A stretch of DNA of 64,000 nucleotides from NCBI GenBank assembly GCA_965284375.1, contig OZ260074.1:1904237-1968236 (forward strand), in the 5' to 3' direction. The DNA comes from Caulobacteraceae bacterium. GTDB lineage: Bacteria > Pseudomonadota > Alphaproteobacteria > Caulobacterales > Caulobacteraceae. The notes under the pieces are model-generated. The model searched no databases. It was not told the origin of the DNA and worked only from the letters and a program-made list of their open reading frames with translations. The position numbers and the translations under genes are program-made. Shown piece by piece: positions 15,012 through 52,770 of this stretch (positions are counted from its first letter, which is position 1; every line of letters starts with the position of its first letter).

Positions 15012-15631
15012 AGACAAGCCCCTGAGCCTTGGTCGTATGCCGCCTGACTAACGTGCTGCGCCCGCGAAGGCGAGGCCGGGGCCGTAACAATCCGTGAGCC
15101 CGTGTGACGTTCCGGGCCCCGGGCAGAGGTCTTCGCCCCGCCGCGCAGGCACGGTAGGTCGAGCGGGAGGCTTGGCAGAGCGCCCGGGCCTTCGCCCGGA
15201 AAAGCGTAGAAAAATACCGTTTCGACGAAGGCAGCACGCTCCGCGCGGACGGTTTTCCGGAAGCTTGCGTCGGGTGGCCGTGTTGGGGCCTTACCGCAGC
15301 GCCTCCGGCGGGCAGGTCGGGCGACGATCCCGATCCCTGGAACGACCTGGGTATCCCCCCGGCCCTCCACCCCGGGCGGGCGGCCCTTAGGAGGCCCCTG
15401 CGCCGGTCCGGCTCCGTCGGCTCGCACCGACGGACCCCGCTCCATCCGCTCCCGCCGCCGCTTCGGTTCGCCGGCCGAGCGAGCCTCCCTGCGACGGGAC
15501 AGGGAGGATTATGGGGGCGGTTCTTCCTGCGGCTGGGAGATGACGCCGGGCCAGCGTCTATATCACGATAGATCAATCGGTTAGCCGAACGAGCCTGTAT
15601 AGCTGAGCGTCTATTGCTCGCACTCAAAACA

Positions 15632-15672
15632 CCGTGCATCCCCGCGAAGGCGGGGACCCAGGTTTGAGCGGC
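15632..15672 (+). repeat. REP-like palindromic element, left arm of island
   Basis: ccgtgcatccccgcgaaggcggggacccaggtttgagcggc; identical over 41 nt to the reverse complement of 51976-52016 in murD. Confidence 0.92.
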
Positions 15673-15745
15673 AACGAGACGGGCTGAACGAACCCCTGCT
15701 CAACCCGACACCGGCGGCGAAGCCAAAAGGGACGCGTGTTCCCAC

Positions 15746-35917: not shown

Positions 35918-35987
35918 TTGACTGACCCGCACAAAGCAGACGCCGTGCGGGTCCCTTGCCCCCCGGACCTGCGGTCCAGGGGCGGTG

Positions 35988-36030
35988 GCCAAGCTAAAGC
36001 CCGGGTCCCCGCCTTCGCGGGGATGCACGG
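35988..36030 (-). repeat. REP-like palindromic element, right arm of island
   Basis: Reverse complement ccgtgcatccccgcgaaggcggggacccgggctttagc; matches the arm at 51887 (…cccaggctttggc). Confidence 0.92.
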
Positions 36031-50095: not shown

Positions 50096-51271
50096 TTACG
50101 GCAAGATGCGCCGGCCCTGGGGCAGGCTGGCCCCCGGCTCGTAGGCGCCAGGGCGGCGGCGGGTCAAGGCCAGGGCCAGTCCCATGGTCAGCCCCATGGC
50201 CAGCATGGATGAGCCGCCATAGCTGATGAAGGGCAGCGTCATCCCCTTGGTCGGGATCAGGTTCAGATTGACCGCGATATTGATGCTGGCCTGCAGGCCG
50301 ATCAGCATGAACAGGCCCGCCGCCGCCGTCTGCTCGAACGGATCGGTCAGCTTCATCGCCCGGCGCATGCCGCGGACGACGATGAAGGCGTAGAGCGAGA
50401 TCATGGCCAGCGAGAGCACCAGGCCAAACTCCTCGGCCCCGACGGAATAGATGAAGTCGGTGTGCAGGTCGGGCACCGACCGTTTCATCACGCCCTCGCC
50501 GACGCCACGCCCGACCAGACCGCCGGCGCGGATGGCCTCTGAGGCGCGGTCGATCTGATGGGTGTCGGTGGTCTCGGGCGAGAAGAAGCGGCTGAGCCGG
50601 TCGCGCATGTGGCTGAAAGCGAAATACAGGCCGACGACCCCGGCGGCCCCGGCGGCGGCGAGGGCGGCCACCCATTTCAACGGCACTCCGGCCATGAAGA
50701 AGACGGCCATGAAGGTGGTGGTGATCAACAGGGTCTGGCCGATGTCGGGCTGGATCAGCAGCAGGCCGACGGTCAGGGCCCAGGCCGCAAAGGCAATGCT
50801 GACGCCAGGCACGCCCTTGCCCTTCTGGGCCTCGGAGAACATCCAGGCCGCGACGACGATCAGCGAAGGCTTGGCGAACTCGGACGGCTGCAGGCTGAAC
50901 GGGCCCAGGTTCACCCAGCGCGCCGCGCCCTTCACCTCACTGCCGATGAACGGCAGGGCGGCCATGACGACGATGGCGCCGAGCAATCCCAGCAGGGCGA
51001 TCCGGCGGACTCCGCGCGGCGACAACAGGGACGTTGTCATCATGATCACCAGACCCATCGAGGCCCAGATGATCATCCGCCAGGAATAGTGGAAGGGGTC
51101 CGTGATGGACTGGTCCGCGAGAATGGCGGCCGGGCTGGAGGCGAAGCTCAGCGACACGCCCAGCGCCACCAGCGTCAGCGCCGCCGCCAGAAGGCCGCGG
51201 TCGACGGTCCAGAACCATTTGGCCAGCGGGCTCTGGTCGTTGCGCGAAAAGGCGGGGCTGTAGTCGGTCAT
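50096..51271 (-). CDS. ftsW: Cell division protein FtsW
   Basis: KGAARW, QPSEFAKP, QPDIGQ, PDLHTDFIYSVGAEEFG, PTKGMTLPFISYGGSS. Confidence 0.97.
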   Translation of the reverse strand: MTDYSPAFSRNDQSPLAKWFWTVDRGLLAAALTLVALGVSLSFASSPAAILADQSITDPFHYSWRMIIWASMGLVIMMTTSLLSPRGVRRIALLGLLGAIVVMAALPFIGSEVKGAARWVNLGPFSLQPSEFAKPSLIVVAAWMFSEAQKGKGVPGVSIAFAAWALTVGLLLIQPDIGQTLLITTTFMAVFFMAGVPLKWVAALAAAGAAGVVGLYFAFSHMRDRLSRFFSPETTDTHQIDRASEAIRAGGLVGRGVGEGVMKRSVPDLHTDFIYSVGAEEFGLVLSLAMISLYAFIVVRGMRRAMKLTDPFEQTAAAGLFMLIGLQASINIAVNLNLIPTKGMTLPFISYGGSSMLAMGLTMGLALALTRRRPGAYEPGASLPQGRRILP

Positions 51272-52770
51272 GATGCGCTCGCGGCGGTCGCGCCCAAGGC
51301 GAGGACGGCGGCGCGGAACGCCTCGCCCCGCGCCTCGAAGTCAGGGTACTGGTCGAAGCTGGCACTGGCGGGGGACAGCAGAACGACCTCCTCGCGGCCC
51401 GTCGCGGCGGCGGCCTCGGCGGCGGCCTTCACGGCACTGGCCATGTCGCCGCTGATCCGGTGCGGTGTGTCCCCCAGACGGGCGGCAAAGGGTCCGGCCG
51501 CCTCGCCGATCAGGAAGGCCTCAACGACGCGGGGGAACAGGTCTTCCAGATCATCGATACCGCCGGCCTTGGCCCGCCCGCCGGCGATCCAGAAGCTGCG
51601 CGGATAGGAGGACAGCGCCTGCCGCGCGGCGTCGGCGTTGGTGGCCTTGGAGTCATTGATGAAGCGGACGTGGCCCAGGCGGCCGACCTCTTCCATGCGA
51701 TGGGCGAGGCCGGGGAAGGACATGAGACCTTGGACGGCTGCGTCGTGGGGCACGCCGAGCGCACGCGCGGCCGCGTAGGCGAAGGCGGCGTTCTGAGCGT
51801 TGTGGCGGCCGGGGAGAGAGCGGGCGTTGGACAGGTCTATGCCTGGCTCGCCCCCGATCTTCAGCATGCCGTCGCCGGCCTCAATCCCGTGCATCCCCGC
51901 GAAGGCGGGGACCCAGGCTTTGGCCTCACCATCGCTGTCCGAACGTCCGTCAGATACTCGGTCGGGGTCGGCGTCGCCGCTCAAACCTGGGTCCCCGCCT
52001 TCGCGGGGATGCACGGATGTGGAGATGGTCGTGACATGGCGATCAGCGGTGGCGAGGTCAGCGGCGATCGTTTGCCCCCAGCGCTCATCTATTCCCGCCA
52101 GCGCCAGCCCGTCAGGCCCCTGCGCCTGAAAAATCCGCGCCTTGGCCGCGACATAGCCCTCCATGCCGCCGTGCCGGTCCAGATGGTCCGGGCTGATGTT
52201 GGTCAGGATGGCCACGTCCGGGGCGAACGTGCTCGTCAGGTCCAGCTGATAGCTCGACACCTCGATCACATAGACCGCGCCCCGCGTCGGCACCGGCAGG
52301 GCCAGCACGCCGATGCCGATGTTGCCGCCGACGTGAACCGTGAGGCCGGCCTGTCTCAGAACCCAGCCGATCAGGGCCGTGGTGGTCGACTTGCCGTTGG
52401 TGCCGGTGATGGCGACCACCCTGGGCCGCTCGCCTTCCGGCAGGGCCGCGATCGCGCGGGCGAACAGCTCGACATCACCGAGAACCTCGACGCCCGCCGC
52501 CCTGGCCTTGCCGACGGTCCAGTGCGGTTTCGGGTGGGTCAGCGGCGCGCCCGGCGACAGCACCAGGGCCGCGAACCCCGACCAGTCGGCGCCCGTCAGG
52601 TCCTCGACCGCGAGCCCTTCGGCCTCGGCCTGCATCCGGCTGGAGACGCTGTCGTCCCACAGCACCGGCAGGGCCCCGCCGGCCTTGAGCGCGCGGGCCG
52701 CCGTCAGTCCCGACCGTCCCAGGCCGAAGACCGCGATGCGCCGCCCTTCAAAGCCGGGAACGGGGATCAT
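51268..52770 (-). CDS. murD: UDP-MurNAc-L-Ala:D-Glu ligase, with an internal REP-derived insertion
   Basis: VFGLGRSG, ITGTNGKSTT, EVSSYQL, HLDRHG, NDSKATN, LSPASASFDQ. Confidence 0.97.
   Translation of the reverse strand: MIPVPGFEGRRIAVFGLGRSGLTAARALKAGGALPVLWDDSVSSRMQAEAEGLAVEDLTGADWSGFAALVLSPGAPLTHPKPHWTVGKARAAGVEVLGDVELFARAIAALPEGERPRVVAITGTNGKSTTTALIGWVLRQAGLTVHVGGNIGIGVLALPVPTRGAVYVIEVSSYQLDLTSTFAPDVAILTNISPDHLDRHGGMEGYVAAKARIFQAQGPDGLALAGIDERWGQTIAADLATADRHVTTISTSVHPREGGDPGLSGDADPDRVSDGRSDSDGEAKAWVPAFAGMHGIEAGDGMLKIGGEPGIDLSNARSLPGRHNAQNAAFAYAAARALGVPHDAAVQGLMSFPGLAHRMEEVGRLGHVRFINDSKATNADAARQALSSYPRSFWIAGGRAKAGGIDDLEDLFPRVVEAFLIGEAAGPFAARLGDTPHRISGDMASAVKAAAEAAAATGREEVVLLSPASASFDQYPDFEARGEAFRAAVLALGATAASAS
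51887..52016. repeat. Intact REP doublet inserted in frame in murD
   Basis: Perfect 31-bp inverted repeat (51887-51917 and 51986-52016) around a 68-bp spacer; translated as VHPREGGDPG...AWVPAFAGMHG. Confidence 0.93.

What the first reader, a model, noticed from the sequence alone, without database searches (positions are those of the whole stretch)
51887..52016. Palindromic REP doublet translated in frame inside essential murD
Seen: a perfect 31-bp inverted repeat encodes VHPREGGDPGLSGDADPDRVSDGRSDSDGEAKAWVPAFAGMHG (about 43 aa) in the MurD central domain, just before the LPGRHNAQNA motif, and the frame is preserved. Established: Rickettsia palindromic elements add peptides to surface loops of housekeeping proteins in this way. 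Inference: a recent, tolerated insertion by an element family that is active in this genome and also bounds the island.
Basis: partly seen in the sequence, partly recalled or inferred. Interest (0 to 1): 0.72.

Follow-up and report, generated by a model that had tools for sequence, protein, structure and literature searches.

The report
Old palindromic repeat translated inside murD
A 130-base hairpin-forming repeat (two inverted REP units) sits in frame in a floppy surface loop of the essential cell-wall enzyme MurD of a Brevundimonas; the kind of event is already known, but this insert is old rather than recent, and the same loop holds such repeats in about half of the genus.

Summary
Window 51887-52016 holds two perfect 31-bp inverted arms with a 68-nt spacer. 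They lie in frame in codons 253-295 of an otherwise intact, single-copy murD (Brevundimonas, dcw cluster).

The unit is a dimer of alphaproteobacterial CGTC-type REPs, so it resembles a REPIN or MITE. The genome holds 8 dimers with these arms and about 17 related ones, but no Y1/RAYT transposase. The encoded 43 aa are predicted to be disordered and lie between two beta-strands of the central domain.

The "recent insertion by an active family" reading is not supported:
- The same insert is present in two sister species and in at least 10 further MurD clusters.
- In those, the arms are invariant and the spacer varies freely, changing length only by whole codons.
- Its spacer is only about 60-65% identical to the spacers of the other copies in this genome.

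Across 80 Brevundimonas-like genomes the same loop holds this element type in 19 and an unrelated palindrome in 18. The element copies in murD are polyphyletic, and the states are scattered on the gene tree.

My reading is an old, tolerated, translated insert in a loop that acts as a hot spot. It has been reshaped by recombination, by replacement from other copies, and by loss.

The parts
51268..52770 (-). murD CDS (500 aa), single copy, intact, in the dcw cluster between mraY and ftsW
   Evidence: (TIGR01087, 335.8 bits). One search found no second murD; the next hit in this genome is about 30% identical over residues 12-210.
51887..52016 (.). 130-bp REP dimer (resembles a REPIN or MITE), subfamily i
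51887..51917 (+). 31-bp REP arm. On the gene strand it encodes AWVPAFAGMHG.
51986..52016 (-). 31-bp REP arm, the exact reverse complement of the other. On the gene strand it encodes (S)VHPREGGDPG.
51894..51911 (.). local hairpin within the arm (7-bp stem, loop GAAG)
51992..52009 (.). local hairpin within the other arm
51918..51985 (.). 68-nt spacer. It varies between species and is only 0.49-0.65 identical to the spacers of the other copies in this genome.
51886..52014 (-). codons 253-295, the 43-aa insert peptide, predicted disordered (pLDDT below 50 for 254-292)
52021..52038 (-). beta-strand (residues 245-250) just before the insert
51874..51888 (-). beta-strand (residues 295-299) just after the insert
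15632..15728 (+). left arm plus spacer of another subfamily-i dimer, cut off where a roughly 20.3-kb island begins
35985..36030 (-). right end of that same dimer, on the far side of the island

Best explanation
What it is. The element is a dimer of two inverted 31-bp REP units of the alphaproteobacterial CGTC-type class. Each unit has a head CGTGC/CGCTC, a GC-rich 7-8-bp stem, a 4-nt loop and a CCA tail. The heads face outward and the units are joined by a 68-nt spacer. It lies in the turn between two beta-strands of the small sheet of MurD's central domain. The insert is translated as a roughly 43-aa disordered loop rich in Gly, Asp, Pro and Ser, and the enzyme tolerates it.

Age. It is an old resident, not a fresh insertion. 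The lineage of this genome inherited it, together with at least two sister species and about 10 further MurD clusters.

What is shown:
- The frame is kept and no stop occurs in any carrier.
- The spacer changes length only by whole codons.
- The arms stay invariant while the spacer drifts.

What is inferred:
- Selection acts only to keep the reading frame open.
- The arms are kept uniform at the DNA level. The likely causes are ectopic gene conversion from the genome's REP population and arm-to-arm correction. Selection for the hairpin is a less likely cause.

The genus-wide pattern. The same codon junction holds subfamily-i elements, subfamily-ii elements or an unrelated type-B palindrome in other Brevundimonas. 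I attribute this mainly to replacement of a resident element by conversion, plus homologous recombination of the loop segment between lineages and repeated loss or decay (about 55%). Repeated de novo site-specific transposition is the alternative (about 30%).
For: Anatomy and family:
- Anatomy of the element.
- This genome holds 8 dimers with the same arms and about 17 related ones, falling into three subfamilies.

Insertion in an intact gene:
- The insert lies in an intact murD.
- AlphaFold2 gives pLDDT below 50 for residues 254-292, between strands 245-250 and 295-299, with mean pLDDT 82.9. The fold matches MurD.
- In E. coli MurD the insert maps just before residue 243.

Age:
- L041 (95% identical MurD) and L042 (91%) carry the insert at the same position.
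- The arms differ at 0/63 and 1/63 nt, while the rest of the gene differs by 8.2% and 11.8%.
- In 11 MurD clusters the arms show 100% and 97% column identity, the spacer 68% and the rest of the protein 94%. Spacer length changes by 1-2 whole codons.
- The murD spacer is only 0.49-0.65 identical to spacers of other copies in this genome.

Translation constraint:
- Only 11 of 48 readings (24 intergenic dimers, both orientations) are in frame and free of stops.
- All 23 type-A murD copies are in frame and free of stops.

Hot spot:
- Among 80 genomes the loop states are: type A 19, type B 11 plus 7 halves, type C 11, none 32.
- On the MurD tree built without the loop, type A needs at least 13 changes and all states together need 34.
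- Well-supported sister pairs differ in state.
- murD copies are polyphyletic among the copies of this genome, with at least 3 origins forced by well-supported branches.

Recombination:
- Identity falls in the flanks of the loop in sister pairs that are otherwise 96-98% identical.
- Between L001 and L041 a tract of 93-100% identity runs from the element to about 25 codons downstream of it, where identity drops to 78%.

Arm covariation:
- 92.6% of cells are paired in the long hairpin model, 9 pairs change on both sides, and 0 of 500 shuffles reach this.
- The local stems are 97.7% paired.

No transposase.
Against: - No reads, RNA or proteome data could be consulted, so translation of the insert rests on frame conservation alone.
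- Perfect arms would also fit a recent insertion if only this genome were considered.
- Conversion versus repeated insertion is not resolved. The G019 murD copy is closer to the G002 murD copy (86%) than to any other copy in its own genome (81%). That favours descent, but the margin is small.
- Arm covariation could come from whole-element turnover rather than selection or correction. The counting tool itself warns that related sequences can inflate the shuffle test.
- The tree used for mapping states comes from the same, possibly mosaic, gene.
Confidence: 0.78

Rival explanations
1. Recent insertion by a currently active element family. The element jumped into murD in this strain or species and is merely tolerated.
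For: - Both arms are 31/31 identical to the family consensus, and several other copies have arms with 0-1 mismatches.
- A copy has been split by an island, which shows the genome is dynamic.
Against: - The same insert, with a homologous spacer, occurs in L041, L042 and at least 10 MurD clusters whose MurD is 87-91% identical.
- The spacer is 0.49-0.65 identical to spacers of other copies, so there is no near-identical donor.
- No Y1_Tnp gene is present in the genome, and only 2 of 61 genomes of the genus have one.
- No target-site duplication is recognisable.
Confidence: 0.05
2. Recurrent, independent, site-specific insertion. The MurD loop DNA is a preferred target, and each lineage acquired its element de novo, which gives the patchy distribution.
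For: - At least three element lineages (subfamily i, subfamily ii, type B) sit at the same junction.
- At least 13 state changes are needed on the tree.
- The L001-clade copy groups with subfamily-i copies of its own genome.
Against: - All 23 type-A copies share the same junction (within one codon) and the same frame.
- The flanks of the loop are also replaced in sister pairs with different states, as expected from recombination of a segment.
- No transposase is known for this REP class (PMC3733652).
- murD copies from different species are each other's best match.
Confidence: 0.25
3. The insert is maintained because it does something. One option is a very stable mRNA or DNA hairpin inside the dcw operon, for example an RNase III or RNase E processing site or a translation pause that sets the murD/ftsW ratio. 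The other option is a protein loop under diversifying selection.
For: - The predicted RNA hairpin has -100.2 kcal/mol, z = -9.
- The arms are more conserved than the rest of an essential gene.
- The arms covary.
- The loop is hypervariable, and allele classes are shared across species.
Against: - Intergenic copies show the same arm conservation, so it is not specific to murD.
- About 40% of species lack any insert, and the 5 aligned MurD proteins from other families of the order lack it too, so it is dispensable.
- The spacer peptide is unconstrained.
- No Rfam family matches; the only hit is a far sub-threshold match to a plant miRNA hairpin.
Confidence: 0.1
4. Artefact, pseudogene or untranslated segment. 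This covers a mis-assembly, a dead murD, or an insert removed by splicing or ribosomal bypass.
For: No read or RNA data could be checked.
Against: - Independent assemblies carry the insert.
- All invariant Mur-ligase motifs are intact and the gene is single copy.
- Frame and absence of stops are preserved in every carrier, and indels are whole codons. Neither would be needed if the segment were removed.
Confidence: 0.02

Closest known systems
Intragenic CGTC-type REPs of alphaproteobacteria (Di Nocera, De Gregorio & Rocco 2013, PMC3733652)
   Same: - GC-rich stem of about 8 bp, 4-nt loop, CCA tail.
- Mostly inverted dimers with spacers of 20-100 bp.
- No dedicated transposase.
- Occasional in-frame copies inside known genes that add tens of residues.
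- The paper even notes different REPs at about the same site of recB in two Xanthomonas species.
   Different: - The head is CGTGC/CGCTC rather than CGTC.
- The murD copy has a 7-bp stem with an A·C mismatch at the position of the eighth pair.
- Brevundimonas and murD are not among the reported cases.
- Here one loop is occupied across a whole genus by several element lineages.
Rickettsia palindromic elements (Ogata et al. 2000, 2002, as cited in PMC10969869)
   Same: Palindromic repeats of about 100-150 bp, inserted in frame in housekeeping genes and translated as extra surface peptides compatible with fold and function.
   Different: - RPEs are numerous inside genes of reduced intracellular genomes. 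Here only one clear in-gene copy exists in a free-living 2.95-Mb genome.
- Sequence relatedness to RPE families was not tested.
REPINs with RAYT transposases (Bertels & Rainey 2011, PMC3116915)
   Same: - Two inverted REPs with a spacer of about 70 nt that fold into one long hairpin.
- The REP parts are more conserved than the spacer.
- The population persists for a long time within a lineage.
   Different: - No RAYT/Y1_Tnp gene.
- No GTAG head.
- REPINs are described as extragenic.
Bacterial MITEs that make in-frame fusions (ERIC, BOX, Anabaena MITEs; review PMC10969869)
   Same: Short, non-autonomous, with terminal inverted repeats and multiple copies. They can be read through as a peptide.
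   Different: No target-site duplication and no parent IS with matching ends was found.

Membership tests
CGTC-type REP (Di Nocera 2013) | Terminal CGTC tag (the paper accepts TGTC and CCTC variants) | tested here: inconclusive
   The head reads CCGTGCAT in this genome and CCGCTCAT in most other species. This is similar to the published tags but is not one of them.
CGTC-type REP (Di Nocera 2013) | 8-9-bp stem with A·T pairs at the first two positions, and a 4-5-nt loop | tested here: met
   Subfamily iii has ATCCCGGC-GAAT-GCCGGGAT, an 8-bp stem. The murD copy has a 7-bp stem plus an A·C mismatch, with loop GAAG.
CGTC-type REP (Di Nocera 2013) | Short unpaired tail fitting CCA | tested here: met
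   ...GGGGA CCCAGG. The CCA follows the stem in all copies.
CGTC-type REP (Di Nocera 2013) | Mostly inverted dimers with spacers of 20-100 bp, and no associated transposase gene | tested here: met
   About 25 dimers with spacers of about 60-70 nt. Y1_Tnp is absent from this genome and present in only 2 of 61 genomes of the genus. I could not map the paper's HH/TT naming because its figures are not held.
REPIN | Two inverted REPs that fold into one long hairpin | tested here: met
   -100.2 kcal/mol, z = -9. Arm-to-arm pairing is 92.6% across species.
REPIN | A cognate single-copy RAYT (Y1 transposase) flanked by the same REPs | tested here: not met
   No PF01797 match in this genome, while the control genomes do give matches.
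MITE | Terminal inverted repeats, small size, no ORF of its own, multiple copies | tested here: met
MITE | Target-site duplication and a parent IS with the same ends | tested here: not met
   The flanks of the 8 dimers show no consistent duplication. No arm pair encloses an IS-sized segment; the only distant pair encloses a 20-kb island.
Rickettsia palindromic elements | In-frame insertion in a surface loop of a housekeeping protein, compatible with the fold | tested here: met
Rickettsia palindromic elements | Sequence membership in RPE-1 to RPE-10 | not tested
   No RPE sequences were compared. Di Nocera et al. equate RPE-4 and RPE-6 with CGTC REPs.
MurD (TIGR01087) | Equivalog score above the cut-off, three-domain Mur ligase fold, conserved motifs | tested here: met
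   335.8 bits against a cut-off of 212. TM 0.82-0.84 to MurD structures. The invariant GTNGKST, DHLDRH and NDSKATN motifs are present.

The most novel reading that the evidence does not exclude
The MurD beta-hairpin loop of Brevundimonas could be a dedicated landing pad or exchange site where REP dimers are repeatedly captured, overwritten and swapped between species. On this reading the resulting perfect 35-bp mRNA/DNA hairpin, or the variable surface peptide, is itself selected. Possible roles are a processing or pausing signal inside the dcw operon, or a moving target for some MurD-binding antagonist. That would make transposase-less REPs a templated, conversion-driven system acting inside an essential gene.
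Probability: 0.1. Interest if true: 0.7.

Novelty: new member of a known kind. Interest (0 to 1): 0.42.

Why it matters
- In-frame palindromic repeats are textbook for Rickettsia but rare in free-living bacteria. This is a clean case in an essential peptidoglycan enzyme.
- Because the copy must stay translatable, it works as a natural time-stamped reporter for how REPs without a transposase persist. The arms stay perfect for as long as it takes MurD to diverge by about 10%, while the spacer drifts.
- The genus-wide polymorphism (three element lineages at one codon junction, with states scattered on the tree) gives a tractable system. It can separate gene conversion, recombination and transposition.
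- It also identifies a MurD loop that accepts more than 40 foreign residues, which is useful for tagging the enzyme.

Tried and rejected
- **Transposase search.** Y1_Tnp/RAYT was absent from this genome and found in only 2 of 61 genomes of the genus.
- **Other in-gene copies in this genome.**
  - Frame analysis by GC3 (G+C content at third codon positions) and Pfam searches on 10 spanning ORFs found none.
  - The apparent cases are spurious high-GC ORFs or elements upstream of the true start codons of thiC, greA and a type 2 IPP isomerase.
- **Is the roughly 30-aa non-palindromic 'type C' loop of other species, or any short remnant, a decayed type-A element?** No nucleotide similarity to the arms beyond shuffled controls was found, so this is unsupported.
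- **Rfam.** The only hit is a far sub-threshold match to a plant miRNA hairpin family, 43.9 bits against a threshold of 197. It simply reflects a generic long hairpin.
- **Target-site duplication.** None is recognisable.
- **Proteins of other families carrying this peptide.** All 11 hits among 5.8 billion proteins were MurD. The sensitivity of that search is limited.
  - The first DNA alignment mixed strands, because loci from the genome search are not re-oriented. It served only as a first look.
  - The first pair counts were one column out of register and were redone.

Full report
**Observation**

- Window 51887-51917 (CCGTGCATCCCCGCGAAGGCGGGGACCCAGG) and 51986-52016 are exact reverse complements, separated by 68 nt. 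None of 100 shuffles of the window gave any match to the arm.
- Each arm also contains its own 7-bp stem with a 4-nt loop.
- The minus-strand ORF 51268-52770 (500 aa) reads through the element.
- The ORF is murD. TIGR01087 scores 335.8 bits against a cut-off of 212, in one stretch. The gene lies between mraY and ftsW (gene names from their motifs, my knowledge).
- No second murD exists in the 2.95-Mb, 67% G+C, single-contig genome.

**What the element is**

- The genome holds 8 dimers of 127-130 bp with the same 31-bp arms (0-2 mismatches in most arms; the 1393635 copy is more diverged). It also holds several solo arms and about 17 further dimers with related arms (CCCGGCGAA[A/T]GCCGGG stems).
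- A tree of the elements separates three subfamilies. The murD copy belongs to subfamily i.
- Head, stem of about 8 bp, 4-nt loop, CCA tail, inverted dimers with spacers of 60-70 nt, and lack of a transposase all match the CGTC-type REPs described mainly from alphaproteobacteria by Di Nocera et al. 2013 (PMC3733652).
- That paper also lists in-frame REPs in known genes of several species. It does not list Brevundimonas or murD.
- No Y1_Tnp/RAYT gene is present in this genome, and only 2 of 61 genomes of the genus have one. The element therefore works like a REPIN but is not one in the strict sense.
- As RNA, the 150 nt around the element fold into one long hairpin of -100.2 kcal/mol (z = -9.0).
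- Rfam gives only a meaningless sub-threshold match to a plant miRNA hairpin.

**Where it sits in the protein**

- An AlphaFold2 model built on 30 orthologues has mean pLDDT 82.9. Residues 254-292 have pLDDT below 50 and no secondary structure. They lie between strands 245-250 and 295-299.
- The model matches solved MurD structures with TM 0.82-0.84.
- In the HMMER alignment to E. coli MurD, residue 297 aligns with E. coli residue 243. The 81 residues 216-296 face 38 E. coli residues, so the surplus equals the insert.
- From my memory of the E. coli structure, this is the turn of the small antiparallel sheet of domain 2, away from the catalytic residues. I could not measure distances.
- All invariant Mur-ligase motifs are present.

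**It is an insertion, but not a recent one**

- The genus is Brevundimonas.
- The two closest species, with MurD 95% and 91% identical, carry the insert at the same codons.
- Against L041 the 129 aligned element positions differ at 1 nt, while the rest of the gene differs by 8.2% (16.6% at third codon positions).
- The arms differ at 0/63 nt (L041) and 1/63 nt (L042). About 5 and 7 differences would be expected, giving Poisson P of about 0.005 each (my arithmetic on the counts).
- In L042 the centre of the spacer has 16 changes in 36 nt.
- A search of 5.8 billion proteins with the insert region found only MurD proteins: 10 further clusters of 498-504 aa.
- In their alignment the arms show 100% and 97% column identity, the spacer 68% and the rest of the protein 94%. 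Spacer length differs by 1-2 whole codons.
- The murD spacer is only 0.49-0.65 identical to the spacers of the other subfamily-i copies in this genome. No donor copy is evident.
- murD is the only clear in-gene copy in this genome.

**Evidence for translation**

- I read the 24 intergenic dimers of this genome in the murD frame, in both orientations. Only 11 of the 48 readings are both in frame and free of stops.
- All 23 type-A murD copies and all 11 clusters of the L001 clade are in frame and free of stops.

**The loop is a genus-wide hot spot**

- Among 80 Brevundimonas-like genomes the same inter-strand turn carries:
  - a type-A dimer in 19 (HP[GR]E..DP ... WVPAFAGM[SH]G);
  - an unrelated type-B palindrome in 11 (CCTTCTCCCC-N4-GGGGAGAAGG, encoding PSPLGGEGG...PPSPPRGEG), plus 7 half copies;
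  - a roughly 30-aa non-palindromic segment (type C) in 11;
  - nothing recognisable in 32.
- Four more type-A carriers were in the first sample.
- All type-A copies share the same junction within one codon and the same frame.
- On a MurD tree built without the loop, type A needs at least 13 changes, type B at least 15, and all states together 34.
- Strongly supported sister pairs differ in state. One example is two genomes both named B. vesicularis: one has type A, the other has none.
- In such pairs, nucleotide identity also drops in the codons flanking the loop (to about 0.6-0.8, against 0.96-0.98 elsewhere). L001 and L041 share a tract of 93-100% identity that runs from the element to about 25 codons downstream of it. 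Both patterns point to recombination of a segment.
- In the element tree, the L001/L041/L042 murD copies group with subfamily-i copies of this genome. The other 19 murD copies group with subfamily ii. Well-supported branches force at least three origins.
- Conversely, the murD copy of G019 is closest to the murD copy of G002 (86%), rather than to any other copy in its own genome (81%).
- The two arms covary. In the long-hairpin model 92.6% of cells are paired, 9 pairs change on both sides, and 0 of 500 shuffles reach this. The covarying positions include loop and head positions that are unpaired in the local hairpins. The local stems are 97.7% paired.
- Within one tight clade, the stems switch between CCCCGC and CCCGGC in both arms together.

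**Reading**

- A REP dimer entered this tolerant loop long ago. Where it survives, it must stay translatable.
- Its arms are kept like those of the genome's other REPs, which suggests DNA-level homogenisation: ectopic conversion and arm-to-arm correction. Its spacer is free to drift.
- Replacement by other subfamilies, exchange of the loop segment between lineages, and loss or decay would then generate the mosaic seen across the genus.
- Repeated de novo insertion into a preferred target remains possible (about 0.25-0.3).
- A selected role for the hairpin or the peptide is unlikely (about 0.1). Intergenic copies show the same arm conservation, and many species lack any insert.

**Comparison with what is known, and verdict**

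- The phenomenon is established. Examples are Rickettsia palindromic elements (Ogata 2000, 2002, via PMC10969869) and intragenic GTAG and CGTC REPs, including different REPs at about the same site of recB in two Xanthomonas species.
- Earlier notes of this scan report similar in-frame REPs in other phyla, including murD. I treat those as leads only.
- I found no report for Brevundimonas murD.
- The finding is real. The 'recent, active' interpretation is wrong. The case is a new member of a known kind, with an unusually rich genus-wide polymorphism.

Noticed in passing
window 15632-15728 and 35985-36030: The two 'solo' arms that flank the neighbouring island are the halves of one subfamily-i dimer. 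The left piece aligns to positions 1-96 of the intact copy at G000 C1:2011189, and the right piece to about 83-128. About 14 nt (GGCGGCGA[A/G]GCCAAA-like) are present on both sides. A segment of about 20.3 kb therefore seems to have integrated into a REP dimer next to its inner right arm.
   Followed up: partly
window 15607-15631; G000 C1:2011164, 1402739, 1610408, 2940963: A 25-bp repeat (GCGTTTATTGCTCGCACTCAAAACA) abuts one end of several REP dimers or solo arms. Some copies therefore belong to a longer composite unit.
   Followed up: partly
other Brevundimonas MurD loci, e.g. L009, L011, L013, L044, L091 (same loop): A second, unrelated palindromic family (stem CCTTCTCCCC/GGGGAGAAGG, dimers of about 130 nt) is translated in frame at the same MurD junction in 11 species, with half copies in 7. 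G000 itself holds about 24 such hairpins, none of them in murD.
   Followed up: partly
L092, L100, L104, L105, L107, L108 and L051, L066, L075, L077, L098 (same loop): Eleven species carry a conserved, non-palindromic segment of about 30 aa in the loop, of two kinds (TRTPPEFVDPTGGVP...AAFEAGRFIIVDA, and VVGGGKRGG...AFHDGH). No DNA similarity to the REP arms was detected. The origin is unknown.
   Followed up: partly
L052, L059, L063, L078, L116 (MurD, just downstream of the loop): Another allele class has an extra segment after the next strand (for example ...GWLTYNVRPQPDGPIERCKIV). The whole small-sheet region of MurD is unusually variable in this genus.
   Followed up: no
G000 C1:728769-728794 (outside the window): A solo REP arm lies directly at the 5' end of a type 2 IPP isomerase-like gene (Pfam FMN_dh). 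The arm's own ATG (…GGGATGCACGG) is in frame 10 codons before the conserved ITARKDQHL motif and could serve as the start codon.
   Followed up: partly
G000 C1:102912-102999 and 2474335-2474449 (outside the window): REP dimers lie in the 5' leaders of thiC and greA, inside long spurious upstream open frames. They might affect leader structure; thiC leaders usually hold a TPP riboswitch.
   Followed up: no
G000 C1:1393635-1403933 (outside the window): A 10-kb stretch holds an unusual concentration of REPs: at least three type-A dimers, one solo arm and two type-B dimers.
   Followed up: no
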